Source: Candidatus Oxydemutatoraceae bacterium (lineage in GTDB: Bacteria; Pseudomonadota; Gammaproteobacteria; Poriferisulfidales; Oxydemutatoraceae). Taken from it: a stretch of 64,000 nt of DNA. Within the stretch, counting starts at the first letter, position 1. Each line of letters opens with the position of its first letter. This document shows, piece by piece, positions 1,808 to 46,060 of this stretch. Made by a program: the position numbers and the translations under genes. The stretch spans positions 1,235,363-1,299,362 of the forward strand of contig OZ243040.1 in assembly GCA_965211995.1 (NCBI GenBank). The letters are read 5' to 3'. Below the pieces are notes generated by a model. The model was not told where the DNA came from. It searched no databases and saw nothing but the letters and a program-made list of their open reading frames with translations.

Positions 1808-1887
1808 AAAGCGGCCGGACAACGGCCGCGCCTGTTAAAATAGGCGTGTCTTGTGGAATCACCAATCAACTTGGGGCGGAAAAAAAC

Positions 1888-2220
1888 ATGAAAAAGACTC
1901 TCTATAAAGTGACCTTCATAGATCAAGATGAAGCCTACTCGCTCTATGCCGCCAAGGTCTATCAGGCGGACTTGTTCGGCTTCATCGCGATCGAGGAAAT
2001 CAACTTCAACCAAAGCGATTCGCTGGTCGTGGACCCGTCCGAAGAGCGTATGAAACACGAATTTCGGGACGTCAAACGCTTCTTCGTCCCGATGCACTCG
2101 ATCATCCGCATCGAGGAAGTCGAGAAAACCGGCGTCGCCAAGATCACCGCCATCAGCGACCAAGTCACAAAACTGCACCGCCCGGTCTATACCGAAAATG
2201 GGACGAACAAGGCGAAGTAA
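1888..2220 (+). CDS. small conserved hypothetical protein (DUF-type, about 110 aa)
   Basis: Internal ATG at aa 133 of ORF 1492..2220. The 1492-1887 part is antisense to the fdh gene end. Codon usage is GC3-biased. Confidence 0.5.
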   Translation: MKKTLYKVTFIDQDEAYSLYAAKVYQADLFGFIAIEEINFNQSDSLVVDPSEERMKHEFRDVKRFFVPMHSIIRIEEVEKTGVAKITAISDQVTKLHRPVYTENGTNKAK

Positions 2221-2301
2221 AAATCCGGAATCAGGGATAGAGGCTGTTAAAATCACCGCCGACGGTGCCACGGACGGCGGACACGAAGAATAGAGACTAA
2301 C

Positions 2302-2392
2302 GGAGAGGTGGCCGAGTGGCTGAAGGCGCACGCTTGGAAAGCGTGTATACGGTTCTCCCGTATCGAGGGTTCGAATCCCTCTCTCTCCGCCA
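2302..2392 (+). tRNA. tRNA-Ser (anticodon GGA)
   Basis: GGAGAGGTGGCCGAGTGGCTGAAGGCGCACGCTTGGAAAGCGTG...GGTTCGAATCCCTCTCTCTCCGCCA. Long variable arm, GGA in the anticodon loop, CCA encoded. Confidence 0.85.
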
Positions 2393-2699
2393 TATTTTCA
2401 TCTCGAGAGACTTGCCGTTTAAAAAAACAGGATTTCAAAAGTGGGAAAAACAATAAAAATTTTCCTTGTTGATGGAGAACCTGATGGATTGAAACCCGCC
2501 GAACTAAGCAACCGGGCCGGTCAAACAACAGTTATTCCAAGAAATAAACTCAACGGTATCAAACAACGTTCTTAAGGGATTATAAGAAATAATCATGGCA
2601 AAAACGGAAGGAGACTTCCAGCCGACCATCCAAGACTTTCATTTGAAAAGGCATTTGGCCCACGGAATTTTTGCTTTTTACGGTCTTTATGAAAACGAA

Positions 2700-2810
2700 C
2701 GGCGCCCCTCGTCTGAAACGCCTCAACGCCGATGCCGCCAATGCGAACACCGCGAGCACAACGGCCGCCGCAATGACGATGCTCGGACCCGACAACGCAT
2801 CAATCAAGCA
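2700..2810 (-). pseudogene. fragment homologous to the znuB 3' end (about 35 codons, stop codon lost)
   Basis: Minus-strand translation reads SGPSIVIAAAVVLAVFALAASALRRFRR, against intact ZnuB SGPSIVTAAAGMFAVLALMSPVLARFRQ. DNA is about 70-75% identical to 6096-6200, in the same orientation. Confidence 0.55.
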
Positions 2811-2879
2811 CCCATTTCATCAAGGCGGCATTAGATTGGATCAGGCAAACTTATCCGATTCATTGAAACGCCGATCTAC

Positions 2880-3158
2880 ATGGGAGCCGAACGAGTTAAA
2901 AGCCCGAATCACCCCGCGCAAAAGCCGGTAAAAGTCCTGGAACACGTCATTAACCTTGCCTCGAACGAAGGCGACTTAGTGTTCGCCCCGTTCATGGGCG
3001 TCGGATCGACCGGGGTCGCCGCACTTAATCTGAACAGAAAATTTATCGGCATCGAGGCCGCTGAAAAATATCACGAAGCCGCAAAGAAAAGGCTGAATAA
3101 ACGACCCGCTAAATTATTCGCAGCCAAACGACAACTGAGCATAGCCGGGCAGTTATGA
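2880..3158 (+). pseudogene. C-terminal remnant of an N6/N4 DNA methyltransferase
   Basis: HPAQKPVKVLEHVI...GDLVFAPFMGVGSTGVAALNLNRKFIGIE is the conserved N4/N6 methylase C-terminal block. Only about 90 aa survive, with no N-terminal domain, and the upstream frame is disrupted. Confidence 0.55.
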
Positions 3159-3212
3159 ATATAGAAAGCGCAACATTTAATCGCAGAGAGTAAAAGACGC
3201 GAATGCTCCACC

Positions 3213-3246
3213 GGAAACCAACCGCAGCAAGCTGCGGTTGGTTTCC
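3213..3246. repeat. perfect inverted repeat GGAAACCAACCGCAGC-AA-GCTGCGGTTGGTTTCC (16-bp arms)
   Basis: Seen directly in the sequence, in the spacer between the convergent methylase remnant and hepT. A second perfect palindrome, CCGGACTAGTCCGG, lies about 100 bp further on. Confidence 0.6.
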
Positions 3247-3420
3247 GTCACGCCTACATAGTCGCCATCACGGAATCCCTTCACCTGCTCGCATAATTTC
3301 TGCACCGGCGGCGGCAACTTCTCCATGCGCGAACCGGACTAGTCCGGCACCCAACGGACGCCGGGATCCGGAACGTCCCAGGGGGGACGCGGGAAAATCC
3401 GGGGGAAGTGGCATGGGAAA

Positions 3421-3834
3421 TTATTTCAGTAAGTCGGCAAGTATGCCGGCGAATTCTATTAAGTCATCGGCATCTTTCTTGAGCACCTTTTCCACCAGCG
3501 TATAGTCAATCTCCCGATACTGATGAACGGTGATGTTTCTAAATCCCACCATGCCTTTTAATTTCTCTTCCAACTCAGCATCTATGATGTCCGCTTTCCA
3601 GAGCAAGGTAAAACTCTCGGCGCTTTCAGACGGAAGTCCAAGTTTTTTCAGACGAATTACATGGTTCGCCATGTCAATACACTGTTCGCAGGCTCTCTGT
3701 AAATTAACAACCACCGCATCTTGCTTATAAAAGTCATCGGTGAAAGGTTTTTCCGACGGGATTGCATAATAATCCCGCGCCTGCTTTATGCGCCGCTCTA
3801 TGCTGGCTTTTTTCTGCCAGAGAATATCAGACAT
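3421..3834 (-). CDS. hepT: HepT-family HEPN toxin (DUF86, nucleotidyltransferase substrate-binding protein-like)
   Basis: 137 aa. The Rx4HxY HEPN motif is present (RNITVHQY). It overlaps the upstream mntA by 8 nt. Confidence 0.8.
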   Translation of the reverse strand: MSDILWQKKASIERRIKQARDYYAIPSEKPFTDDFYKQDAVVVNLQRACEQCIDMANHVIRLKKLGLPSESAESFTLLWKADIIDAELEEKLKGMVGFRNITVHQYREIDYTLVEKVLKKDADDLIEFAGILADLLK

Positions 3835-4267
3835 CGTAAAACCTCCCGGTATTCAAACCACTTTCAACGATTTCCCGACGCTCCTCATTCAGTTTTTGAT
3901 AAAAAGACAGCGTCAGCATTTCAAATTCATCAGCCGCATTCTCATCAGCGCAGTAAATGCGCCGGTCGGCGGCGATAATTTCCTTGCGCAGAATCACCGG
4001 AGCCGTGCGTAGATTGACTAAATCAATACGATCCACTTTTGCGGCTGATGCAACTTCAACTGAAAGGTGGCCCCACGTTGAATAGTCAATGTCTCGCGCC
4101 GTTGTATTCGGAAGGAGCACGGCGATGTCCAAGTCGCTATCCTGGCGCTGGTATTCGGTGCCCCAGGTGCCGTAGATGTAAATGGCCTGGGTTTTGGGGT
4201 AAGCTTTCAAAATAGAATCAACAGATCTAGCAACAAATACTTCGATGCGTTTGGGAACAATAGTCAT
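3827..4267 (-). CDS. mntA: MntA-family minimal nucleotidyltransferase antitoxin
   Basis: 146 aa. The NTase motif GTWGTEYQRQDSDLDIAV (GS...DxD) is present. It overlaps the upstream gene by 4 nt and hepT by 8 nt. Confidence 0.8.
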   Translation of the reverse strand: MTIVPKRIEVFVARSVDSILKAYPKTQAIYIYGTWGTEYQRQDSDLDIAVLLPNTTARDIDYSTWGHLSVEVASAAKVDRIDLVNLRTAPVILRKEIIAADRRIYCADENAADEFEMLTLSFYQKLNEERREIVESGLNTGRFYDV

Positions 4268-5058
4268 AACTTATATCCCCAAATTTTATTGCGGTCTACA
4301 TGGCTCGTCATATCGGAGCATCGGTTTCCAGCGTGCTTTAACCACGAAAACATCCAAAGAAACCAAACAAAAAGAGAATTATCTTCTAGACACAAAAAAT
4401 CAAACATCTCGTTTCCTATTGCATCACGTTTAACTGGGGCTAGAGGTTTCTCATACGGACTATTCGGCTGACTCAATTTTGACAAAGATCGGTATGAACC
4501 ACCCGAAACAAGAAATTTTCCTGGGACAACAATGAAATCTGGGGATTCTCTATTAGGAATATCTTTAAGTATTAATTGAAGATTTTTTTTGACTGTCTTT
4601 GAGGCCGGTGCATCAAACGCCCAAAGGGTGAATAGCGAGTCCTTGATTTGTGGTATATGAGAATCACCGAACTCCCGAAGAAGTGTCTTGAACTTCCGAC
4701 ATTTTTTAACTGCATCTTGAATATCACGCGGATTGAGTTGCGTCTTAACTTCAATCAGGCTGTAAACAGATTCAACTAGGAAAATTTTTTTAGACATCTC
4801 TGAATGTAAACAGGTATTCCATATTTCATCATAAATAACTAAATCGGCTTCATTCGAAAATACCCCATTATGAGAAGTAATTAGTCCTGTATCCACGCCA
4901 AAGGCAGATGGCGGGTGTTTGCTTAAAAAATCAGCAAGAATACCTTCCCTGTTTTGCCCTGCTGAAAGATTGTGTGAGGTGAAATCACGATGGATACGTT
5001 CATGTTGGGAAGACATCTCCTTTGAGATTTCCCTCAGATATTCAGGCAACATGCTCAC
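4264..5058 (-). CDS. hypothetical protein with a PD-(D/E)xK-like nuclease motif, first gene of the mntA-hepT operon
   Basis: 264 aa (262 aa if the ATG at 5052, which has a GGAG RBS, is used). The motif ...EADLVIYDE...(x20)...LIEVK fits the D...(D/E)xK core. I recognise no named family. It overlaps the mntA start by 4 nt. Confidence 0.6.
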   Translation of the reverse strand: MSMLPEYLREISKEMSSQHERIHRDFTSHNLSAGQNREGILADFLSKHPPSAFGVDTGLITSHNGVFSNEADLVIYDEIWNTCLHSEMSKKIFLVESVYSLIEVKTQLNPRDIQDAVKKCRKFKTLLREFGDSHIPQIKDSLFTLWAFDAPASKTVKKNLQLILKDIPNRESPDFIVVPGKFLVSGGSYRSLSKLSQPNSPYEKPLAPVKRDAIGNEMFDFLCLEDNSLFVWFLWMFSWLKHAGNRCSDMTSHVDRNKIWGYKL

Positions 5059-5104
5059 ACTCCAATCTCCAAAATCTTCATCGTGTCATTCCCGAATATA
5101 TCCA

Positions 5105-5138
5105 CCACCTTGACGGCGATCTTCCGCCGTCAAGGTGG
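5105..5138. promoter_or_regulatory. perfect 14-bp inverted repeat CCACCTTGACGGCG-ATCTTC-CGCCGTCAAGGTGG about 50 nt upstream of the three-gene operon
   Basis: Seen directly. It overlaps the stop codon of the decayed upstream gene and is followed by a TATATT -10-like element and then a GGAG RBS. Candidate operator and/or terminator. Confidence 0.4.
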
Positions 5139-5139
5139 G

Positions 5140-5733
5140 CATTCTTGTTTCACGCTGGTCAATTCCAGCGAGCGGTCTTTCTTGGTGCGGAAACTTTGCC
5201 ATTCGTTTTCAAAGATGTAGTCGCCGCTCCATTGTTTTTCGGTTTCGCCGGTGTCTTCGTTTTTGACGCGGATGATTTCGCGTTTGCTTTCGAAGTCGAA
5301 GTCCACGGCTCAGTAGTCTATCCAGTCGGTTCAATGTTTGATTAGTTGTTCGCGGGAGATTTTACCATTTTTGTCTTTGCTGACGCGCACAATCTGGCCG
5401 TGGTCGGCGACAATTTTGGTTTTGCCGTCTTTGAGGGATTCTTCGGCGTTGGCGATACCCTGGGAGTAGTGTACGGAGAAGTCGGTCAATTCCACGGGCA
5501 CCGAAGCAAGTCCCCCTGACAAGAAGGATTTAGGGGGTTGCCTGTTCTCAACCCGACTCAGCAAATCAGTATGGACCCCTTCAAGATTATTCAGGATTGG
5601 TCTTACCCCGTTTTAACGGATACCGGTTTAGACTGAGGCCTCCTGCTGTTCATACACGACGGGCAGCGGCCTGCCGGCTTCGAGCAACCTTACGGCATCG
5701 CGCTTTTCACTATCTGTTAATTTCATTCGTTAG
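5140..5733 (-). pseudogene. remnants of one or more decayed genes of unknown function (in-frame stops)
   Basis: The minus-strand reading is broken by two in-frame stops: ...ISREQLIKH* TDWIDY* AVDFDFESKREIIRVKNEDTGETEKQWSGDYIFENEWQ... A 32-aa MKLTDSEKRDAVRLLEAGRPLPVVYEQQEASV stub sits at about 5635-5733. Confidence 0.35.
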
Positions 5734-6095
5734 TCGCTCCGCCGGGCGGCTGCTTAACTTGTTTTAATGACCAAATACATGCGCCCGCAAATCACGCCGA
5801 GATGGCTGCAAGCCTGCGGATTCGCCACGGGCTTCGACCGCAGATGACCTGCCCCTGAAGCATATACCAACAGCAACTTAGGAAAATTCATAGTGGCAAA
5901 TCCACACGCCCCGCTCCAGTTGCTGTTGCAGTATCTTCATGCAGGACCGCCACTTTGAACAGCGCGTAAAGCGAACTGCCCGCAGGGCGCGCGACGGAGA
6001 TAAATCTTATTTTTCCCGATCACCGGTTCAAATCTCGCTTGCAGAAAAACGTTTAACTCCCGCTATCAGGCTTATGCACGGCGGCTCCCCCGTAA

Positions 6096-6911
6096 CTATT
6101 GCCTGAAACGCGCAAGCACCGGCGACATCAATGCAAGCACCGCGAACATGCCGGCCGCCGCGGTGACGATGCTCGGGCCCGACGGCGTGTCAAACTTCAC
6201 CGAGCCGAAAATGCCGCCGATCACCGCGAGCACGCCGATCACCGCCGCGGCCACGGCCATCGCTTCGGGCGAGCGCGCCAACTGACGGGCGGCGGCGGCG
6301 GGAATAACCAGCAGCGCCGTGATCAGCAGGATGCCGACGATACGGATCGACACCGCCACCACGATCGTCATCAGAAACATCAGCAGCAACTGCGTCCAAA
6401 AAACACTTACGCCTTCCGCTTTGGCCAGGTCTTCGTGCACGGCCATCAGCACCAGCGACGGCCAGTTGACGAACAGCAGGCCGAGCACCACAACGCCGCC
6501 GCCGTAGATCCAATACAACTCTTGCGGCGTGACGGTCAGGACGTCGCCAAACAGGTAGCCGTGCAGATCAAAGCGCGGATTATCCAGAAAACTGATCGCC
6601 ACCATCCCGACGGCGAGCGCGGCGTGGGCCAGAATGCCGAGCAAGGTATCCGTCGCCAGCACCCGCTTTTGCTGCAGCCACACCAGCAGCACTGCAAAGA
6701 CGGAGCAGACCAGCACCGTCCCCGGACCGACGCCGAAGCCGTAGAGCAGGCCGAGGGCGACACCGAGCAAAGCGCTGTGGGCGAGCGAGTCGCCGAAATA
6801 AGCCATGCGCCGCCACACCACGAAGCAACCGAGCGCACCCGCAACGAGGGCGACGCCGACGCCCGCGCCCACCGCGCGGAGAATAAAGTCATCGGGCATT
6901 GCTGCCTGCAT
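6096..6911 (-). CDS. znuB: zinc ABC transporter permease ZnuB
   Basis: 271 aa polytopic membrane protein of the ZnuB/MntB family, sitting between znuC and the cluster end. Confidence 0.85.
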   Translation of the reverse strand: MQAAMPDDFILRAVGAGVGVALVAGALGCFVVWRRMAYFGDSLAHSALLGVALGLLYGFGVGPGTVLVCSVFAVLLVWLQQKRVLATDTLLGILAHAALAVGMVAISFLDNPRFDLHGYLFGDVLTVTPQELYWIYGGGVVVLGLLFVNWPSLVLMAVHEDLAKAEGVSVFWTQLLLMFLMTIVVAVSIRIVGILLITALLVIPAAAARQLARSPEAMAVAAAVIGVLAVIGGIFGSVKFDTPSGPSIVTAAAGMFAVLALMSPVLARFRQ

Positions 6912-28719: not shown

Positions 28720-29208
28720 ATGACCGAACTACTCGCAGACCTGACGCGCGTGCTGCAAAACAGGCGCCCGCGGGACCTGCTGCTGCTGCGCCACTCCCCC
28801 GAACTCGACGCCGCACTCCAACCACTGCTGGACCGGCTTGACCCCGCGCCCGAACTGACGCTCGCCGACCCCGCCGCGTGGCTGAATCAGCCGCAACTCA
28901 AACACCGGCACCAACTGGGCCTGCTGTGGGATTCTCCGCCGTCGTTGTCCGACGCCGATTACGGCCATTTGCTCGCGCGGCTGCGCGACCTCGACTGCGA
29001 AGCGGTGTATATCCGCTGCCCCGAAGGAGGCGACGACGCGCAACAGCGGTCACCGCGGCTGCGCTCGCTCGGGTTCCTGCCGCTTAAACACTACGCCGAC
29101 GGCGCCGCGCTGTTTTATTTTGATATCTACGATTACAAACTGCTGCCGGATTGGCTTAACCGCAGATTCTGGGCCAACCCGGAAATGTGGAACAAGGCGA
29201 GGTGGTGA
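28720..29208 (+). CDS. conserved hypothetical protein (162 aa)
   Basis: GC3-biased ORF of unknown function. Its 3' 265 bp are tandemly duplicated (see the repeat feature). Confidence 0.5.
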   Translation: MTELLADLTRVLQNRRPRDLLLLRHSPELDAALQPLLDRLDPAPELTLADPAAWLNQPQLKHRHQLGLLWDSPPSLSDADYGHLLARLRDLDCEAVYIRCPEGGDDAQQRSPRLRSLGFLPLKHYADGAALFYFDIYDYKLLPDWLNRRFWANPEMWNKARW

Positions 29209-29493
29209 GCGGATAACACCGTTGTCCGACGCCGGCTGCGGCCATTTGCTCGCGCGGCTGCGCGACCTCGACTGCGAAGCGGTGTATATCCGCTGCGAAG
29301 GGTGCGACGACGCGCAACAGCGGTCACCGCGGCTGCGCTCGCTCGGATTCCTGCCGCTTAAACACTACGCCGGCGGCGCCGCGCTGTTTTATTTTGATAT
29401 CTACGATTACAAACTGCCGCCGGATTGGCTTAACCGCAGATTCCGGGCCAACCCGGAAATGTGGAACAAGGCGAGGTGGTGAGCGGATAACGC
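28943..29493. repeat. tandem direct duplication, 2 x about 277 bp (about 97% identical; the second copy has a 3-nt deletion)
   Basis: ORF 29120..29482 repeats the C-terminal 87 aa of ORF 28720..29208, including the stop and the 3' flank GGTGGTGAGCGGATAAC. Confidence 0.8.
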
Positions 29494-31092: not shown

Positions 31093-32379
31093 ATGAAATT
31101 TGAAACTGTCGCCATCCACGGGGGCTACGAGGCCGAGCCGACGACGCGCGCGGCGGTCACGCCGATTTATCAGACGACTTCCTACACTTTCAGAGACACC
31201 CAGCACGGCGCCGACCTGTTCGACCTGAAGGAAATCGGGAACATTTACACGCGCATTATGAACCCGACGACCGCGGTGCTCGAACAACGGGTCGCCGAGA
31301 TGGAAGGCGGCGTCGGCGCGCTCGCGCTGTCGTCGGGGATGGCGGCGATCAGTTACGCGCTGTTTACGATCACCGGACAGGGAGACAACGTTATCTCGGC
31401 GCCGACGCTGTACGGCGGCACCTATAACTTCTTCGCCCACACGCTGCCCCAGTTCGGCATCGGGATACGCTTCTGCGACCCGACGCCCGAGGTTGTCGCC
31501 AAGCACATAGACGACAAGACCAAGGTGGTTTTCTGCGAATCGATCGGCAATCCGGCGGGCAACGTCACCGACATCGCAGCGTTGGCCGAGGTCTGCCGCA
31601 GCCGCGGCGTAGTGCTGATAGTGGACAACACGGTGCCCTCGCCCTACCTGTGCCGTCCGTTCGAGCACGGCGCCGACGTCGTCGTGCACTCGCTGACCAA
31701 GTACATGGGCGGGCACGGCAACAGCATCGGCGGCATCATCGTGGACTCCGGAAAATTCCCGTGGAAAGAACACGCCGACCGCCACCCGGTGCTGAGCGAA
31801 CCCGACGCTTCGTACCACGGCATCGTCTATACCGACGCGATGGAGGATGCGGCCTATATCGGGCGCGCGCGCCTGGCGCCGCTCAGGAACATGGGCTCGG
31901 CGTTGTCGCCGTTCAACAGCTTTCTGGTGCTGCAGGGGCTTGAGACATTGCCGTTGCGCATGGAACGCCATTGCGAAAACGCGCTGACCGTCGCCAACTA
32001 CCTGCGGCAACACCCCCAGGTGACCTGGGTCAGGTACGCGGGGCTCGACGACCACCCGGACAAGCCGCTGGTTGACCACTATATGGGCGGCAAGGCGTCG
32101 GGCATCCTGAGCTTCGGCATCGAAGGCGGGCGTGAAACCGGCGCGCGCTTCATAGACGCGCTGCAACTGATCCTGCGGTTGGTCAATATCGGCGACGCAC
32201 GCTCGCTCGCGTGCCACCCGGCGACGACCACGCACCGCCAACTCGGACCGGCGGAACTCAAAAGCGCCGGCGTGTCCGAAGACCTCGTGCGACTGTCGAT
32301 CGGCATCGAGCACGCGGACGACATCATCGCAGACATCGAACAGGCGCTCGACGCCTGCCGCACGCGCAAAACCGCTTAA
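31093..32379 (+). CDS. metY: O-acetylhomoserine aminocarboxypropyltransferase / sulfhydrylase (PLP-dependent)
   Basis: MKFETVAIHGGYEAEPTTRAAVTPIYQTTSY..., Cys/Met-metabolism PLP family, PLP lysine in SLTKYMGGHG. Confidence 0.9.
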   Translation: MKFETVAIHGGYEAEPTTRAAVTPIYQTTSYTFRDTQHGADLFDLKEIGNIYTRIMNPTTAVLEQRVAEMEGGVGALALSSGMAAISYALFTITGQGDNVISAPTLYGGTYNFFAHTLPQFGIGIRFCDPTPEVVAKHIDDKTKVVFCESIGNPAGNVTDIAALAEVCRSRGVVLIVDNTVPSPYLCRPFEHGADVVVHSLTKYMGGHGNSIGGIIVDSGKFPWKEHADRHPVLSEPDASYHGIVYTDAMEDAAYIGRARLAPLRNMGSALSPFNSFLVLQGLETLPLRMERHCENALTVANYLRQHPQVTWVRYAGLDDHPDKPLVDHYMGGKASGILSFGIEGGRETGARFIDALQLILRLVNIGDARSLACHPATTTHRQLGPAELKSAGVSEDLVRLSIGIEHADDIIADIEQALDACRTRKTA

Positions 32380-32803
32380 CCCGCTTAGACTCACGCCCCC
32401 TCGCCGGCCGCGAGTTCTCCGTATGATCTTGCCGGGTTAAAACCCGCTCAGGTCACGCAGTTTCGCCGGCGGCTTGTTGAGCCGGTGACGATAGACAAGC
32501 GTGTAGAAAAGCACCGCGCGCACGTACCGGCGGGTTTCGTCGAACGCGACTGTCGATCGGCATCGAGCACGCGGACGACATCATCGCAGACATTGAGCAG
32601 GCACTCGACGCTTGCCGCACGCGCAAAACCGCTTAACCCGCTTAGACTCACGCCCCCTCGCCGGCCGCGAGTTCTCCGTATGATCTTGCCGGGTTAAAAC
32701 CCGCTCAGGTCACGCAGTTTCGCCGGCGGCTTGTTGAGCCGGTGACGATAGACGAGTGTGTAGAAAAGCACCGCGCGCACGTACCGGCGGGTTTCGTCGA
32801 ACG
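32290..32803. repeat. tandem direct duplication, 2 x 257 bp, across the metY/slt convergent junction
   Basis: ORFs 31069..32394(-) and 32448..32651(-) share identical 35-aa N-termini exactly 257 nt apart. Copy 1 carries an extra slt 3' fragment and copy 2 an extra metY 3' fragment. Confidence 0.8.
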
Positions 32804-34736
32804 GAATCGTATCCACCCATACCGCCCCCTCGGCGACCGGCGCGTTGTTCAGCCAGCGCCGGGCGTTGGTCGGCCCCGCGTTGTATCCGGCCAGACTCAC
32901 CGCCAATCTGTTATCGCTTCTGCGGTACAACTGCTTGATATAAGCGGTTCCGAGCCGGATGTTGATCGTCGGAGAGAGCAGTTTGCGGGGCGAGACTTCA
33001 CCGATGCCGAGGCGCGAGGCGACGGCCCGCGCGGTGCCCGGACGCAACTGCATCAGCCCCAACGCGCCGGCCGGCGACTTGATCTGCTCGACGAAACCGC
33101 TTTCCCTGCGCATGATGGCGTAGATCCACTCGGTCGGCACCTCGCTGCGGCGCGACTCCGCCTCGATGAGCCTCCGATAAGGCATTGGAAAACGCTGCCG
33201 CAGATGCCCGTCCGCGCCGCCGCTTGAGAGGCTGCGGATCGCGCCGATCGGCCAGCGCCAGCGGTCGGCCGCGACCGCAATTTTCAATTTCGTGCGGGCG
33301 TCCACGCGTTCGAGCAACGCCAGCAACTCGCGGCTCGCGTCGAACGGCCGCTTGAGGAGCCAGAGTTCACGCATCCGCGCCACCGCGGGATATGCGTTCA
33401 ACTCCGCCATCTCGGCGTCGGTGAATTCGAGCGCCGCCAGCGCGTGCGGGTAAGGCCGCGCGAGTCGGTCCGCCGCAAGATAGCCGTAGTAATCGTCCTT
33501 TTGCGCCAATTGCCCCCAAATCTCGTGCGCCTCGCCGCGGCGGCCCAACGCCGCGAGCGCGTGCGCGCGCCAGTAACGCCACTGCGGAAAAGCGCGGGCT
33601 TTGCCCTGAAGATCGTCAACGCTTGCGAGCACCTGCCGCCAGGCCTGCATCCGCAACGCGGCGCGTATGCGCCAATAGCGCGACTCGTCGTCGCGATGTT
33701 CGGGCGGCAGCCGCGACAGCCAGCGGTACGCCTCGCGCGGCATCAGGCGCCGTGCCGCGGTAATGCCAATCTCTTTCTCCAGCGCGCGATGCGCGAGGCA
33801 CACGCTGCAATCGCGCTTGATCCGGTCCCACGCCTGCCCCGCCTTGACTGCGTCCTTTGCGATCAGGCGGCGCAGCGCGAACACCATCACGTCGCCGGCG
33901 TAACGCGAAGCCGCAACCTGCTCGCGCATCTTGAACGCGGTGCGCTCGGGATGGTCACGCGCCCGCTTGAGCTCCCCGAACCAGCGGCGCGCATCGCCCT
34001 GCAACTTCCCGCCCAGATAATTCACCAGCCCCGACCGCCCCCGGCTCCACACCAGCAGCGCCCGCTCCCAGATCAGATCATCGTTGAACACGTTCCGCTC
34101 GAAGCCCCATTTGAAAGCGGGATCGCACGCCGGCGGCTGCGAAAAATCCACCAGCCACAGAGACTTGAGCAACTCTGCGGCTTCGTCCGTGCGCCCGGCG
34201 CGGATCAAGGCATACGCGTAGCGGCACCGGTTGTCCTTGTTATCGAAGTTCACCGACTCGTGGTAATGCTCAAGAAAACTGTCCCAGCGGCCGCGGTGCG
34301 CGAGTTGCGCGAGCCAACGATGGCGCAACTTCTCCGCGACCGGCGTCTCACCGCCGTAGGTTCTCAGAAAGGCGGCGATCTCGCCCTCGTCGGCGCGCGC
34401 AAGGCGGCCTTGCAGGTCATGGTGCAACAGATACGGATACAACGGATAACTCGCAAGCGCTTCGCGCCGGCGTTTGAACGGCTTGCGGCTGCCGGCCTTG
34501 AGCGCGCGCTCGACTGTAACGAACAACGCGCGCTGTTCCTCGATGCGGCCGTCGCCGCGCGCCTGCGAAGACAGCGGCGCCGCCAGCAACAGCACACTCA
34601 GGCAGACCGGCAACGCACCGCCCGGCACGCACGCCGACGCATGAGATAATGCACGCCGGCCCGCGGCAACGATCAAATTCGCCCCCCGCAACCACCTTGG
34701 AAACGCTGGCACAAATCTATACGAGCATCGAGGCAT
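32694..34736 (-). CDS. slt: soluble lytic murein transglycosylase (Slt70 family)
   Basis: Superhelical N-terminal domain plus the C-terminal SLT catalytic motifs ESGF...AGALGLMQL...YNAGP. The true start is probably an internal GTG near 34628 (signal peptide ALPVCLSVLLLAAPLSSQA). Confidence 0.85.
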   Translation of the reverse strand: MPRCSYRFVPAFPRWLRGANLIVAAGRRALSHASACVPGGALPVCLSVLLLAAPLSSQARGDGRIEEQRALFVTVERALKAGSRKPFKRRREALASYPLYPYLLHHDLQGRLARADEGEIAAFLRTYGGETPVAEKLRHRWLAQLAHRGRWDSFLEHYHESVNFDNKDNRCRYAYALIRAGRTDEAAELLKSLWLVDFSQPPACDPAFKWGFERNVFNDDLIWERALLVWSRGRSGLVNYLGGKLQGDARRWFGELKRARDHPERTAFKMREQVAASRYAGDVMVFALRRLIAKDAVKAGQAWDRIKRDCSVCLAHRALEKEIGITAARRLMPREAYRWLSRLPPEHRDDESRYWRIRAALRMQAWRQVLASVDDLQGKARAFPQWRYWRAHALAALGRRGEAHEIWGQLAQKDDYYGYLAADRLARPYPHALAALEFTDAEMAELNAYPAVARMRELWLLKRPFDASRELLALLERVDARTKLKIAVAADRWRWPIGAIRSLSSGGADGHLRQRFPMPYRRLIEAESRRSEVPTEWIYAIMRRESGFVEQIKSPAGALGLMQLRPGTARAVASRLGIGEVSPRKLLSPTINIRLGTAYIKQLYRRSDNRLAVSLAGYNAGPTNARRWLNNAPVAEGAVWVDTIPFDETRRYVRAVLFYTLVYRHRLNKPPAKLRDLSGF

Positions 34737-38036: not shown

Positions 38037-40307
<2,271 letters not shown>

Positions 40308-40332
40308 TCATGCCAAGCCCTGAGTGAGCAAT

Positions 40333-40420
40333 CGGTTCATCCCCACCCGCGTGGGGAACACAATAGCTAAATTATTTTTTTGATTTTTCGCCGGTTCATC
40401 CCCACCCGCGTGGGGAACAC
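40333..40420 (-). CRISPR. orphan CRISPR remnant, type I-E-like: two 29-nt repeats GTGTTCCCCACGCGGGTGGGGATGAACCG flanking one 30-nt spacer
   Basis: Repeats at 40333-40361 and 40392-40420 are identical, palindromic-core and I-E-like. The spacer is GCGAAAAATCAAAAAAATAATTTAGCTATT. An AT-rich (about 42% GC) leader-like stretch runs 40421-40700 on the transcription-proximal side. No cas genes are in the window. Confidence 0.7.
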
Positions 40421-40751
40421 GTGATACGCCAGTGGGTGCCACGAAGTCCCGGAACCTTCAACTGAATTGGCCTTACCCCAAAAATTAAGGCTATTTCCAG
40501 ATAAAACCATGTCACTGTCTCTTTTAATATTCTCAGTCATATTTGCTCTCTTGAAGCCGAAGCATTGCGTAATTTCTGCCTGACCGATCACAAAATATAG
40601 GGTGATTCCGCCTGTGTCAGTTATCTGGTGGAGAACCAGGGTGCCTTCGTGGATAGACTTCCCGCCCTCTGCAATCAGCAACGGTATCCACATTTCACCT
40701 TTGATATTATATGCTTCTCATCGCCCAATCATCGGCAAGCCGAGAAACATT

Positions 40752-41090
40752 GTGCTCGAATTTTCCCCCGCAGAACTGAAAAGCCGCCTTGCATCGGCTG
40801 AAACCTCAGCCCAAACTCCGCCGTTTTTGCTCGACGTGCGCGAGCAATGGGAATACGACGTCGCACACCTGCCGGACTCGGTGCTGATACCGGTCTCCGA
40901 GATCACGGCGAGACTCGGCGAACTCGACCCGCAACGTGAAACCGTCGTGATCTGCCATCACGGCATCCGCAGCATGAAAATTGCGCAACTACTTAAACAG
41001 GCCGGATTCGAGCGTGTGATAAACTTGCGCGGCGGTTTGGATGCGTGGGCGAAAGAAGTTGACCCGGCGATGCCGACTTACACCAAGTGA
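40752..41090 (+). CDS. single-domain rhodanese (GlpE-like sulfurtransferase)
   Basis: Active-site Cys in VVICHHGIRS, about 112 aa from a GTG. The rest of ORF 40602.. is CRISPR-leader sequence. Confidence 0.7.
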   Translation: MLEFSPAELKSRLASAETSAQTPPFLLDVREQWEYDVAHLPDSVLIPVSEITARLGELDPQRETVVICHHGIRSMKIAQLLKQAGFERVINLRGGLDAWAKEVDPAMPTYTK

Positions 41091-45767: not shown

Positions 45768-45859
45768 GGCGGAGAGGGTGGGATTCGAACCCACGTGCCG
45801 GTTTGCACCGACCATCTGATTTCGAGTCAGCGCCGTTATGACCACTTCGGTACCTCTCC
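45768..45859 (-). tRNA. tRNA-Ser (anticodon CGA)
   Basis: The reverse complement GGAGAGGTACCGAAGTGGTCATAACGGCGCTGACTCGAAATCAGATGGTCGGTGCAAACCGGCACGTGGGTTCGAATCCCACCCTCTCCGCC has a long variable arm and CGA in the anticodon loop. Confidence 0.8.
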
Positions 45860-45971
45860 GGCGAGGCCGCAGTATATCTCAGCAAGTTGGCGAAAAAGGC
45901 GGGGCTGGCTCGCGCCGTCCCCGGCGCTCGCTCCTGCGGGATAACCCGCCTCGCGAGTTTTCCAAATCGAC

Positions 45972-46060
45972 TGCCCTGCCGATTTGTCGAAACCCGCGGG
46001 CCGGTTTGCACCGACCCTCCGATTTCGAGTCAGCGCCGTTATGACCTCCGGTGCCTCTCC
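45972..46060 (-). pseudogene. decayed tandem copy of tRNA-Ser(CGA), including its 5' flank
   Basis: GGAGAGGCACCGGAGGTCATAACGGCGCTGACTCGAAATCGGAGGGTCGGTGCAAACCGGCCCGCGGGTTTCGAC... is about 85% identical over the 5' 75 nt, with the anticodon stem and T arm disrupted. The 14 nt upstream of each copy (CCTCGCCGGAGAGG) are also shared. Confidence 0.55.

What the first reader, a model, noticed from the sequence alone, without database searches (positions are those of the whole stretch)
40333..40700. Orphan type I-E-like CRISPR remnant (leader + 2 repeats + 1 AT-rich spacer) upstream of thiC, with no cas genes
Two identical 29-nt repeats GTGTTCCCCACGCGGGTGGGGATGAACCG (classic I-E repeat architecture) flank a 30-nt spacer GCGAAAAATCAAAAAAATAATTTAGCTATT. 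The spacer is about 17% GC against the roughly 65% genome, so it has a foreign, AT-rich phage or plasmid origin. A 280-bp AT-rich leader-like stretch follows on the transcription-proximal side. The nearest gene on that side is an unrelated rhodanese, so the cas operon has been lost or is elsewhere. Orphan mini-arrays can still make crRNA used by a distant Cas complex, or act as regulatory or anti-invader decoys. Read-through from the array's leader would also run toward thiC. ORF 40367..40693 in the track is an artefact reading through the repeat (VFPTRVGMNR).
Basis: partly seen in the sequence, partly recalled or inferred. Interest (0 to 1): 0.7.

Follow-up and report, generated by a model that had tools for sequence, protein, structure and literature searches.

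The report
Orphan one-spacer type I-E CRISPR remnant
Two perfect copies of a genuine type I-E CRISPR repeat flank one short AT-rich spacer in a stretch of extra DNA between a rhodanese gene and thiC, with no cas genes within 64 kb; this is an ordinary orphan mini-array, most likely a leftover.

Summary
Two exact 29-nt copies of GTGTTCCCCACGCGGGTGGGGATGAACCG lie on the minus strand (40392-40420 and 40333-40361) around a 30-nt spacer of 20% GC.

The same 29-mer is the repeat of real arrays. One sits directly after a complete cas3-cse1-cse2-cas7-cas5-cas6e-cas1-cas2 operon in a Syntrophobacter MAG, so the sequence is CRISPR-derived and type I-E.

No I-E Cas homologue and no further repeat occurs in the 64-kb window. 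Six syntenic relatives have only 106-511 bp between the rhodanese gene and thiC, and no repeat. The window has 789 bp, so the unit lies in a lineage-specific insertion of about 670 bp and 47-51% GC. It is not a conserved thiC leader.

- The "leader" has no demonstrable leader features.
- No protospacer was found, so a foreign origin of the spacer is unproven.
- The spacer is 2 nt shorter than in all about 75 intervals of true arrays with this repeat (61-62 nt period against 59).

The ORF through the repeat is probably spurious. The most likely reading is an inert, horizontally acquired relic. It would be usable only if a compatible I-E Cascade is encoded elsewhere in the genome. This is a known kind of feature and of low interest.

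The parts
40392..40420 (-). CRISPR repeat 1 (upstream, 'leader-proximal' copy), GTGTTCCCCACGCGGGTGGGGATGAACCG
   Evidence: Exact match. Identical to the repeats of I-E arrays in L001, L005, L002, L003 and L004. It forms a 6-bp CCCCAC/GTGGGG hairpin with a GCGG loop, read directly from the sequence.
40362..40391 (-). Single spacer, 30 nt, 20% GC: GCGAAAAATCAAAAAAATAATTTAGCTATT
   Evidence: No protospacer found. It is 2 nt shorter than the 32-33 nt spacers of all true arrays with this repeat.
40333..40361 (-). CRISPR repeat 2 (downstream copy), identical to repeat 1 and not degenerate
   Evidence: Exact match.
40421..40695 (-).
   Evidence: No cas2 remnant. No Pfam, PADLOC, PHROG or NCBIfam hit. 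No excess RNA structure, z = 0.04. One sigma-70-like site at 40620-40592, at chance frequency. Leader similarity test uninformative.
40030..40332 (-). Downstream flank of the insertion (trailer), about 51% GC, with no repeat remnants
   Evidence: No degenerate repeat. No structure signal, z = -0.10. No Rfam hit. No similarity to other loci.
40030..40695 (.). Lineage-specific insertion of about 670 bp carrying the mini-array; boundaries approximate to about +/-20 bp
   Evidence: The gap between the rhodanese gene and thiC is 789 bp here, against 139, 511, 167, 106, 142 and 143 bp in syntenic relatives L006-L011. Only the two ends align with the relatives. GC is 48%, against 57-73% for the other intergenic gaps.
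40367..40693 (-). 108-codon ORF that runs through repeat 1 and the spacer; probably not a gene
   Evidence: Among 1.84 billion representatives, the only hits are three weak ones to internally repetitive proteins. GC3 is 0.54, against 0.68-0.88 for host genes. No family hits.
40006..40033 (-). thiC-proximal promoter-like site (TATAAT/TAAAAT), orthologous to the TATAAT of relatives
   Evidence: The mini-array lies about 300 bp upstream of it.
38037..39962 (-). thiC (context gene downstream of the array, same strand)
   Evidence: Pfam ThiC_Rad_SAM at 1.7e-185.
40752..41090 (+). Single-domain rhodanese gene (divergent neighbour)
   Evidence: Pfam Rhodanese at 1.9e-19. Start fixed by comparison with L006.

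Best explanation
This is an orphan, minimal type I-E CRISPR array of repeat-spacer-repeat. It sits inside a lineage-specific insertion of about 670 bp and lower GC, in the otherwise short intergenic region between the rhodanese gene and thiC.

The most likely reading is an inert leftover of horizontally acquired CRISPR DNA. It could be what remains of a I-E locus after the rest was lost, or a small array-bearing fragment that recombined in.

Shown:
- The repeat is identical to a I-E repeat.
- There is one spacer only.
- There are no cas genes within 64 kb.
- The unit is absent from six syntenic relatives.

Inferred:
- If transcribed on the minus strand (toward thiC), and if a compatible Cas6e/Cascade is encoded elsewhere in the genome, the transcript would be cut at the base of each repeat hairpin. 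That would give one 59-nt crRNA: an AUGAACCG 5' handle, the 30-nt spacer, and a 21-nt hairpin 3' handle.
- Without such proteins it does nothing.
For: - Two exact 29-mers, none expected by chance.
- The identical 29-mer is the repeat of arrays with a 61-nt period. In Syntrophobacter (L001) the array directly follows cas3-cse1-cse2-cas7-cas5-cas6e-cas1-cas2. In Nitrosospira (L003) the repeat directly follows cas1-cas2.
- The L001 Cas proteins find nothing in the window except the translated repeats. There is no cas2 remnant. The flanking ORFs have no defence-family or Pfam hit.
- Six relatives keep the rhodanese-thiC synteny with 106-511 bp between the genes and no repeat.
- The intergenic region is 48% GC, against 57-73% for other intergenic gaps.
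- The 59-nt period lies outside the 61-62 nt seen in about 75 native intervals. That fits decay, for example slippage in the A5 or A7 runs, or a non-canonical origin.
- No protospacer, self-target or anti-cas match was found.
- Another cas-less mini-array with the same repeat exists in Aquincola (L002), so such orphans recur.
Against: - Both repeats are perfect, including the distal one, which is usually degenerate in old arrays (compare L002 and L004). That argues for a young or maintained unit rather than a long-decayed relic.
- The rest of the genome is unseen, so a I-E cas operon may exist elsewhere.
- E. coli Cascade works with spacers longer than 20 nt (PMC5159557), so 30 nt does not preclude function.
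- No cas pseudogene fragments flank the unit, which a simple in-place deletion of a cas operon might have left.
Confidence: 0.6

Rival explanations
1. It is a functional satellite array. A type I-E cas operon elsewhere in the genome supplies Cas6e and Cascade, and perhaps Cas1-Cas2. This isolated unit then contributes one crRNA against an AT-rich invader and may be a young array that has taken up a single spacer.
For: - Both repeats are perfect and the hairpin is intact.
- Two repeats and one spacer is exactly what a single acquisition at a solitary repeat would produce. A solitary repeat next to cas1-cas2 is seen in L003.
- Isolated arrays far from cas genes can be active and horizontally acquired (PMC13142298, for type I-F).
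- Spacers longer than 20 nt still support interference in E. coli I-E (PMC5159557).
Against: - There are no cas genes within 64 kb.
- The spacer length is off the 32-33 nt ruler seen in all true arrays with this repeat (a 31-33 nt preference for I-E is reported in PMC5159557).
- No recognisable leader elements.
- No protospacer.
- The leader-repeat junction is absent from the metagenome collection, so nothing suggests a population-level, expanding array.
Confidence: 0.28
2. It is a regulatory cr-like mini-array. The single spacer guides Cascade by partial complementarity to a host promoter, as proposed for mini-arrays inside I-E, I-F and I-B cas loci and for CreA. Alternatively, the unit modulates thiC through read-through transcription.
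For: - Same strand as thiC, about 300 bp upstream of its promoter, with no terminator predicted in between.
- One-spacer mini-arrays with regulatory targets are described in about 19% of bacterial I-E loci (PMC10120712).
Against: - Those elements lie inside cas loci, usually between cas3 and cas8. This one does not.
- The only seed-type matches in the window are two 10-mers, at 34139 and 36311. They have non-canonical flanks (GCT, CGC) and occur at near-chance frequency: 3 found including the spacer itself, against 0.55 expected.
- thiC keeps its own promoter, orthologous to that of relatives that lack the insert.
- The flanks show no RNA structure or Rfam signal.
Confidence: 0.05
3. It is an assembly artefact. 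A fragment from another organism's CRISPR locus, for example a Nitrosospira-like I-E array in the same sample, was stitched into this contig.
For: - The insert has a foreign composition.
- The exact repeat occurs in unrelated taxa: Nitrosospira, Aquincola and Syntrophobacter.
- Exact-sequence look-ups of three window proteins found no record, so the source genome appears absent from the collections searched.
Against: - It would need two chimeric junctions about 670 bp apart, placed exactly inside one intergenic region while leaving the synteny on both sides intact.
- The flanks of the repeats are not array sequence and match none of the known loci.
Confidence: 0.04
4. It is not CRISPR-derived at all. 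It would be a chance or REP-like palindromic duplicate, of the kind that fills the same intergenic region in the closest relative.
For: L007 carries REP-like palindromes (GGATTCCCGCCTGCGCGGGAATGACG) in the orthologous intergenic region.
Against: - The 29-mer is identical over its whole length to repeats of bona fide I-E arrays next to cas genes.
- It bears no resemblance to the L007 palindromes.
- No match was expected by chance.
Confidence: 0.01

Closest known systems
Orphan or isolated CRISPR arrays (arrays away from cas genes), e.g. the E. coli I-E CRISPR2.2-2.3 and I-F CRISPR4 arrays and the P. aeruginosa isolated CRISPR3
   Same: It has a canonical subtype-specific repeat and no adjacent cas genes. 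It sits in an ordinary chromosomal intergenic region and was probably acquired horizontally. Another cas-less mini-array with the identical repeat exists in Aquincola agrisoli (L002).
   Different: - It has only one spacer.
- The spacer is 2 nt shorter than the native ruler.
- No leader shared with a cas-adjacent array can be shown. In P. aeruginosa the isolated array's leader nearly matches that of CRISPR2 (PMC13142298).
- There is no anti-cas spacer match, unlike E. coli CRISPR4 (reviewed in PMC8616872; tested).
Canonical type I-E CRISPR-Cas locus (cas3-cse1-cse2-cas7-cas5-cas6e-cas1-cas2-leader-array), as in L001 (Syntrophobacter MAG)
   Same: The 29-nt repeat is identical, with the hairpin and the ATGAACCG 3' part that would give the 8-nt crRNA 5' handle.
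   Different: There are no cas genes, one spacer instead of tens, a 59-nt instead of a 61-nt period, and no cas2 directly upstream of the leader.
Regulatory mini-arrays or cr-like RNAs inside CRISPR-cas loci (Shmakov et al. 2023, PMC10120712) and CreA of CreTA modules
   Same: Two repeats flank a single spacer.
   Different: Those lie within cas loci, usually have degenerate repeats, and carry a spacer with a seed plus PAM match to a nearby promoter. Here the repeats are perfect, the locus has no cas genes, and no such target exists in the window.
Virus- or provirus-borne mini-CRISPR arrays and solitary repeat units (reviewed in PMC8616872)
   Same: A single spacer flanked by two complete repeats that are identical to the repeats of complete systems.
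   Different: There are no phage or mobile-element genes around it. The repeat and the flank sequences are absent from 2.9 million viral contigs. The spacer has no detectable target, whereas most viral mini-array spacers do have one.

Membership tests
Type I-E CRISPR array | A 28-29 nt partially palindromic repeat of the I-E type, the same as repeats that flank I-E cas operons | tested here: met
   The exact 29-mer is found in arrays next to cas3-cse1-cse2-cas7-cas5-cas6e-cas1-cas2 (L001) and next to cas1-cas2 (L003). The hairpin is CCCCAC-GCGG-GTGGGG.
Type I-E CRISPR array | Regular spacing with spacers of 31-33 nt (61-62 nt period) | tested here: not met
   The period is 59 nt and the spacer 30 nt. 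All of about 75 intervals in L001, L002, L004 and L005 are 61-62 nt. A 31-33 nt preference for I-E is reported in PMC5159557.
Type I-E CRISPR array | Several different spacers (an array rather than one unit) | tested here: not met
   There are only two repeats and one spacer. No degenerate extra repeat occurs anywhere in the window.
Type I-E CRISPR array | AT-rich leader with a promoter and IHF or leader-anchoring elements abutting the first repeat | tested here: inconclusive
   The upstream 100 nt are not significantly similar to the leaders of L001-L003, but those leaders are not similar to each other either. One sigma-70-like site lies 170 nt upstream, at chance frequency. No clear WATCAANNNNTTR site was seen by eye.
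Type I-E CRISPR array | Adjacent cas genes (cas3, cse1, cse2, cas7, cas5, cas6e, cas1, cas2) | tested here: not met
   tblastn with all L001 and L003 Cas ORFs hits only the translated repeats. The neighbours are thiC, a TonB-dependent receptor, a rhodanese, a TolC-like protein and KdtA. The rest of the genome is not available.
Type I-E CRISPR array | Spacer derived from a mobile element (a protospacer with an AAG-type PAM) | tested here: inconclusive
   No match in viral contigs or metagenome contigs, whether exact or with every sixth base free. Only chance-level hits (E >= 2) in phages and plasmids. Most CRISPR spacers have no known match, so this is not evidence against.
Type I-E CRISPR array | Transcription and Cas6e processing into crRNA | not testable with these tools
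   Needs RNA-seq or a northern blot.
Regulatory mini-array / CreA-like cr-like RNA | Located inside a CRISPR-cas locus, with a spacer seed plus PAM match to a nearby promoter | tested here: not met
   No cas locus. The best seed matches are two 10-mers with GCT and CGC flanks, at near-chance frequency.
Anti-cas orphan array (E. coli CRISPR4 type) | Spacer matches the cognate cas genes | tested here: not met
   No position in the fetched loci L001-L008, including the I-E cas genes of L001 and L003, reaches 19 of 30 identities. Only two cas loci were available.
Virus- or mobile-element-borne mini-array | Embedded in a provirus or mobile element | tested here: not met
   There are no mobile-element genes nearby. 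The repeat, the spacer and both flanks are absent from viral contigs. The flanks have no PHROG hits.
Conserved thiC leader / TPP riboswitch | Conserved structured 5' leader upstream of thiC | tested here: not met
   No Rfam hit in the window or in five relatives. The segment is absent from six syntenic relatives.

The most novel reading that the evidence does not exclude
The unit could be a live, newly seeded neo-array. In this reading, a single I-E repeat arrived in a housekeeping intergenic region by horizontal transfer. It then took up one non-canonical 30-nt spacer through a I-E adaptation machinery encoded elsewhere. It is now co-transcribed toward thiC, so that thiC expression and crRNA production are coupled.
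Probability: 0.05. Interest if true: 0.5.

Novelty: new member of a known kind. Interest (0 to 1): 0.2.

Why it matters
It matters little beyond annotation. The locus should be labelled as an orphan one-spacer I-E CRISPR remnant, and the 108-codon ORF across it should not be called a gene. It shows that an uncultured gammaproteobacterial lineage near Thiohalobacter and Ectothiorhodospira has met I-E CRISPR DNA that also circulates in Nitrosospira, Aquincola and Syntrophobacter. It also shows that the rhodanese-thiC spacer is a hot spot for inserted DNA in this lineage. If the full genome turned out to carry a matching I-E system, the locus would be a neat example of a minimal satellite array, but even that would be a known phenomenon.

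Tried and rejected
- **cas2 remnant upstream of repeat 1.** tblastn with two Cas2 proteins from arrays with the same repeat gave nothing credible. The best hit lies in the rhodanese gene on the other strand.
- **I-E cas genes anywhere in the window.** None found.
- **Real gene in the 'leader' ORF.** No PADLOC, Pfam, PHROG or NCBIfam hit. A HMMER search of 1.84 billion representatives gave three weak hits to internally repetitive proteins, two of them large Ig-like-repeat proteins. These were rejected as repeat-inflated chance.
- **Protospacer search.** Exact and 'every sixth base free' patterns in viral and metagenome contigs, and blastn against phages and plasmids, gave only chance-level hits.
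- **Whole intergenic region against phages and plasmids.** Only the repeats match other CRISPR arrays.
- **Same locus in other genomes or metagenomes.** The leader-repeat junction was not found. The exact-repeat scan of representative genomes returned only other taxa. Exact-protein look-ups for three window proteins found nothing.
- **Self-target, regulatory target or anti-cas target.** None found.
- **Structured RNA or riboswitch in the flanks.** z-scores are about 0 and there is no Rfam hit.
- **Leader homology.** Uninformative, because true leaders of this repeat family do not resemble each other.
- **Terminal repeats or target-site duplication at the insert ends.** Only short chance-level inverted repeats.
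- **Second TATAAT.** A TATAAT near 40710-40715 first looked like the ancestral thiC promoter. The alignment shows that the thiC-proximal TATAAT, about 40013-40018, is the orthologous one.

Full report
**Observation.** The sequence is as described. GTGTTCCCCACGCGGGTGGGGATGAACCG occurs twice without mismatch on the minus strand, at 40392-40420 and 40333-40361. None was found in 100 dinucleotide shuffles, even with three mismatches allowed. The two copies enclose 30 nt, GCGAAAAATCAAAAAAATAATTTAGCTATT (40362-40391). The spacer is 20% GC, against 62.2% for the window. No third copy, however degenerate, exists. The best other match in the 64 kb is 20 of 29, inside coding sequence, and no half-repeat occurs elsewhere.

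**Is it CRISPR?** Yes. A scan of one genome per species (185,579 species) found the identical 29-mer in five stretches.
- Two stretches come from a Syntrophobacter MAG, with 8 and at least 47 exact copies (L001 and L005). One comes from Aquincola agrisoli (L002) and two from Nitrosospira MAGs (L003, L004).
- In L001 the array directly follows ORFs with Pfam matches to Cas3 (C-terminal part), Cse1, Cse2, Cas7 (CT1975), Cas5, Cas6e, Cas1 and the I-E type of Cas2. That is the canonical type I-E operon.
- In L003 a single copy follows cas1-cas2 and a short leader.

The repeat is therefore a bona fide I-E repeat, and it occurs in distantly related Proteobacteria. This disposes of the idea that it is a chance or REP-like palindrome.

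**Departures from a normal I-E array.**
- There is only one spacer.
- The period is 59 nt. About 75 intervals measured in L001, L002, L004 and L005 are all 61 nt or occasionally 62 nt. Published surveys give 31-33 nt as the strongly preferred I-E spacer length (PMC5159557). The spacer contains A5 and A7 runs, so loss of 2 nt by slippage is a plausible inference, but it is not shown.
- Both repeats are perfect, including the distal one, whereas the distal repeats of L002 and L004 are degenerate.

**cas genes.**
- All ORF segments of at least 90 aa from L001, L003 and L005, which include the whole I-E operon, were run against the window by tblastn. They hit only the translated repeats at 40230-40496.
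- Two Cas2 proteins were run against 39900-41000 with very permissive settings and gave nothing credible.
- The neighbours are thiC (38037-39962, minus strand), a TonB-dependent receptor, a rhodanese (GTG at 40752 to 41090, plus strand), a TolC-like protein, KdtA and a Kdo kinase.

The array is therefore orphan on the scale of the window. The rest of the genome cannot be examined. Exact-sequence look-ups of three window proteins found no record, and the repeat scan did not return this locus. The source genome thus appears to be absent from the collections searched.

**Comparative context.** The closest ThiC proteins (88, 85, 84, 83 and 82% identity) come from uncultured gammaproteobacteria. 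The nearest named relatives, at about 75% identity, are Thiohalobacter and Ectothiorhodospira.
- Six of their loci (L006-L011) keep the arrangement KdtA, TolC-like and rhodanese on one strand with thiC, the TonB-dependent receptor and a periplasmic binding protein diverging from them.
- The rhodanese-thiC spacers are 139, 511, 167, 106, 142 and 143 bp. None contains anything resembling the repeat.
- The window has 789 bp. In the alignment, only about the first 55 nt next to the rhodanese gene, and the TATAAT-to-ATG segment next to thiC, have counterparts in the relatives.
- About 670 bp (roughly 40030-40695) is therefore a lineage-specific insertion.
- The intergenic region is 48% GC, while the other intergenic gaps of the window are 57-73%.
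- The only other comparably low-GC patch is a small toxin-antitoxin island next to a tRNA-Ser gene.
- In the closest relative (L007) the same spacer is filled with REP-like palindromes, so this site tolerates inserted DNA.

The motif is not part of a conserved thiC leader.

**The flanks.** The 273 nt upstream of repeat 1, the proposed leader, form most of a 108-codon ORF (40693-40367).
- That ORF has no Pfam, PADLOC, PHROG or NCBIfam match.
- A HMMER scan of 1.84 billion representative proteins gave three weak hits, all to internally repetitive proteins. Their repeats each match the same 35-60 residues. I regard these as repeat-inflated chance.
- GC3 of the ORF is 0.54, against 0.68-0.88 for the host genes.

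Neither flank folds better than shuffled sequence (z = 0.04 and -0.10). Neither matches Rfam, the other loci, the rest of the window, phages or plasmids, or viral contigs. The upstream 100 nt are not significantly similar to the leaders of L001-L003. Those leaders are not significantly similar to one another either, so leader identity can be neither confirmed nor excluded. One sigma-70-like site (CTGACA, 17 nt, TATTTT; 40620-40592, minus strand) lies 170 nt upstream of repeat 1, but such sites occur at chance frequency in this region.

**The spacer.** No target was found in any search.
- There is no exact match in 2.9 million viral contigs, and none when every sixth base is left free, as I-E targeting allows. 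The every-sixth-base-free pattern also finds nothing in 241 million metagenome records.
- blastn against phages and plasmids gives only hits with E of 2 or more, in AT-rich genomes.
- It does not match the cas genes of L001 or L003, so there is no anti-cas signal.
- In the window, the only seed-type matches are two 10-mers (34139 and 36311) with non-canonical flanks. The count is 3 including the spacer itself, against 0.55 expected.

A foreign origin is plausible from the composition, but it is unproven. A regulatory target in the window is not supported.

**How it most likely works.**
- Shown: it is a CRISPR-derived repeat-spacer-repeat unit of I-E type. It has no local cas genes, it lies in recently inserted DNA, and its sense strand is that of thiC.
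- Inferred, function: I think it most likely does nothing now (about 0.6). It is too small, its spacer is off the ruler, it has no recognisable leader and it has no partner genes nearby.
- Inferred, activity if a I-E system exists elsewhere: any minus-strand transcript through 40420-40333 would be cut by Cas6e at the base of each hairpin. The product would be one 59-nt crRNA. E. coli Cascade tolerates spacers longer than 20 nt (PMC5159557), so this crRNA could be active. That satellite-array reading gets about 0.28. Its best support is that both repeats are perfect.
- Inferred, effect on thiC: read-through toward thiC is possible because no terminator is predicted. thiC nevertheless retains the promoter it shares with relatives that lack the insert, so an effect on thiC is not needed to explain anything.
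- Regulatory mini-array, chimera and non-CRISPR readings are each minor, for the reasons given under the rival explanations.

**Comparison with known systems and novelty.** Orphan or isolated arrays are well documented (PMC8616872, PMC13142298). So are one-spacer mini-arrays, both inside cas loci (PMC10120712) and on viruses. This is a new instance of the first kind, in an uncultured lineage, with two mild oddities: a 30-nt spacer and a perfect distal repeat. Interest is low, at 0.2.

Noticed in passing
window 1808-6095: A low-GC island (48%, against 62% for the window) lies directly after tRNA-Ser(gga) at 2302-2392. It holds a truncated N6/N4 DNA methylase fragment (2880-3158, +), a HepT RNase (3421-3834, -) with its MntA-like nucleotidyltransferase partner (3827-4267, -), which together form a HEPN/MNT toxin-antitoxin pair, and a DUF6602 protein (4264-5058, -). 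An imperfect 91-nt direct repeat (2713-2803 and 6103-6193, 75%) brackets it. It looks like a small integrated defence or toxin-antitoxin islet.
   Followed up: partly
window 38037-40033; L006-L010: thiC has no TPP riboswitch. Rfam finds nothing in the window or in five syntenic relatives, whose thiC upstream regions are only 106-167 bp in four of the five. In the window and in L006-L012, thiC is followed by a TonB-dependent receptor and an oppositely oriented periplasmic binding protein. How thiC is regulated in this lineage is open.
   Followed up: partly
L007 3596-4106: In the closest relative (ThiC 88% identical), the rhodanese-thiC spacer is filled with several copies of a REP-like palindrome, GGATTCCCGCCTGCGCGGGAATGACG. 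The same intergenic site has taken up different inserted DNA in different lineages.
   Followed up: no
window 32289-32803 and 28943-29491: There are two near-perfect tandem duplications: 2 x 257 nt (97-98%) and 2 x 274 nt (95%). The first spans the end of one ORF and the 3' end of the lytic transglycosylase gene. The second lies within overlapping ORFs at 28720-29482. They could be recent duplications or assembly artefacts.
   Followed up: no
window 45768-46046: tRNA-Ser(cga) at 45768-45859 (-) has a 56-nt partial copy, 93% identical, 203 nt away at 45991-46046. This could be a scar of an integration or excision event at the tRNA.
   Followed up: no
L003 3575-3603: A Nitrosospira MAG carries cas1-cas2, a leader of about 55 nt and then a single copy of the same repeat, followed by non-array sequence. 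That is a 'zero-spacer' state. The contig ends 150 nt later, so this is not certain.
   Followed up: no
L002 1150-1400: Aquincola agrisoli has a 4-5 repeat mini-array with the same repeat and a degenerate, truncated last repeat. No cas gene lies directly upstream; the neighbouring ORF looks like a membrane permease by eye. It is another orphan of the same repeat family.
   Followed up: no
window 39963-40277 (-): The thiC reading frame stays open for 105 codons upstream of the real ATG, into the inserted DNA, which gives a mechanical 746-aa ORF. The extension has no family hits, and relatives start at the conserved MxxK...RG motif, so it is probably not translated. Automatic gene callers could still over-extend thiC here.
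   Followed up: partly
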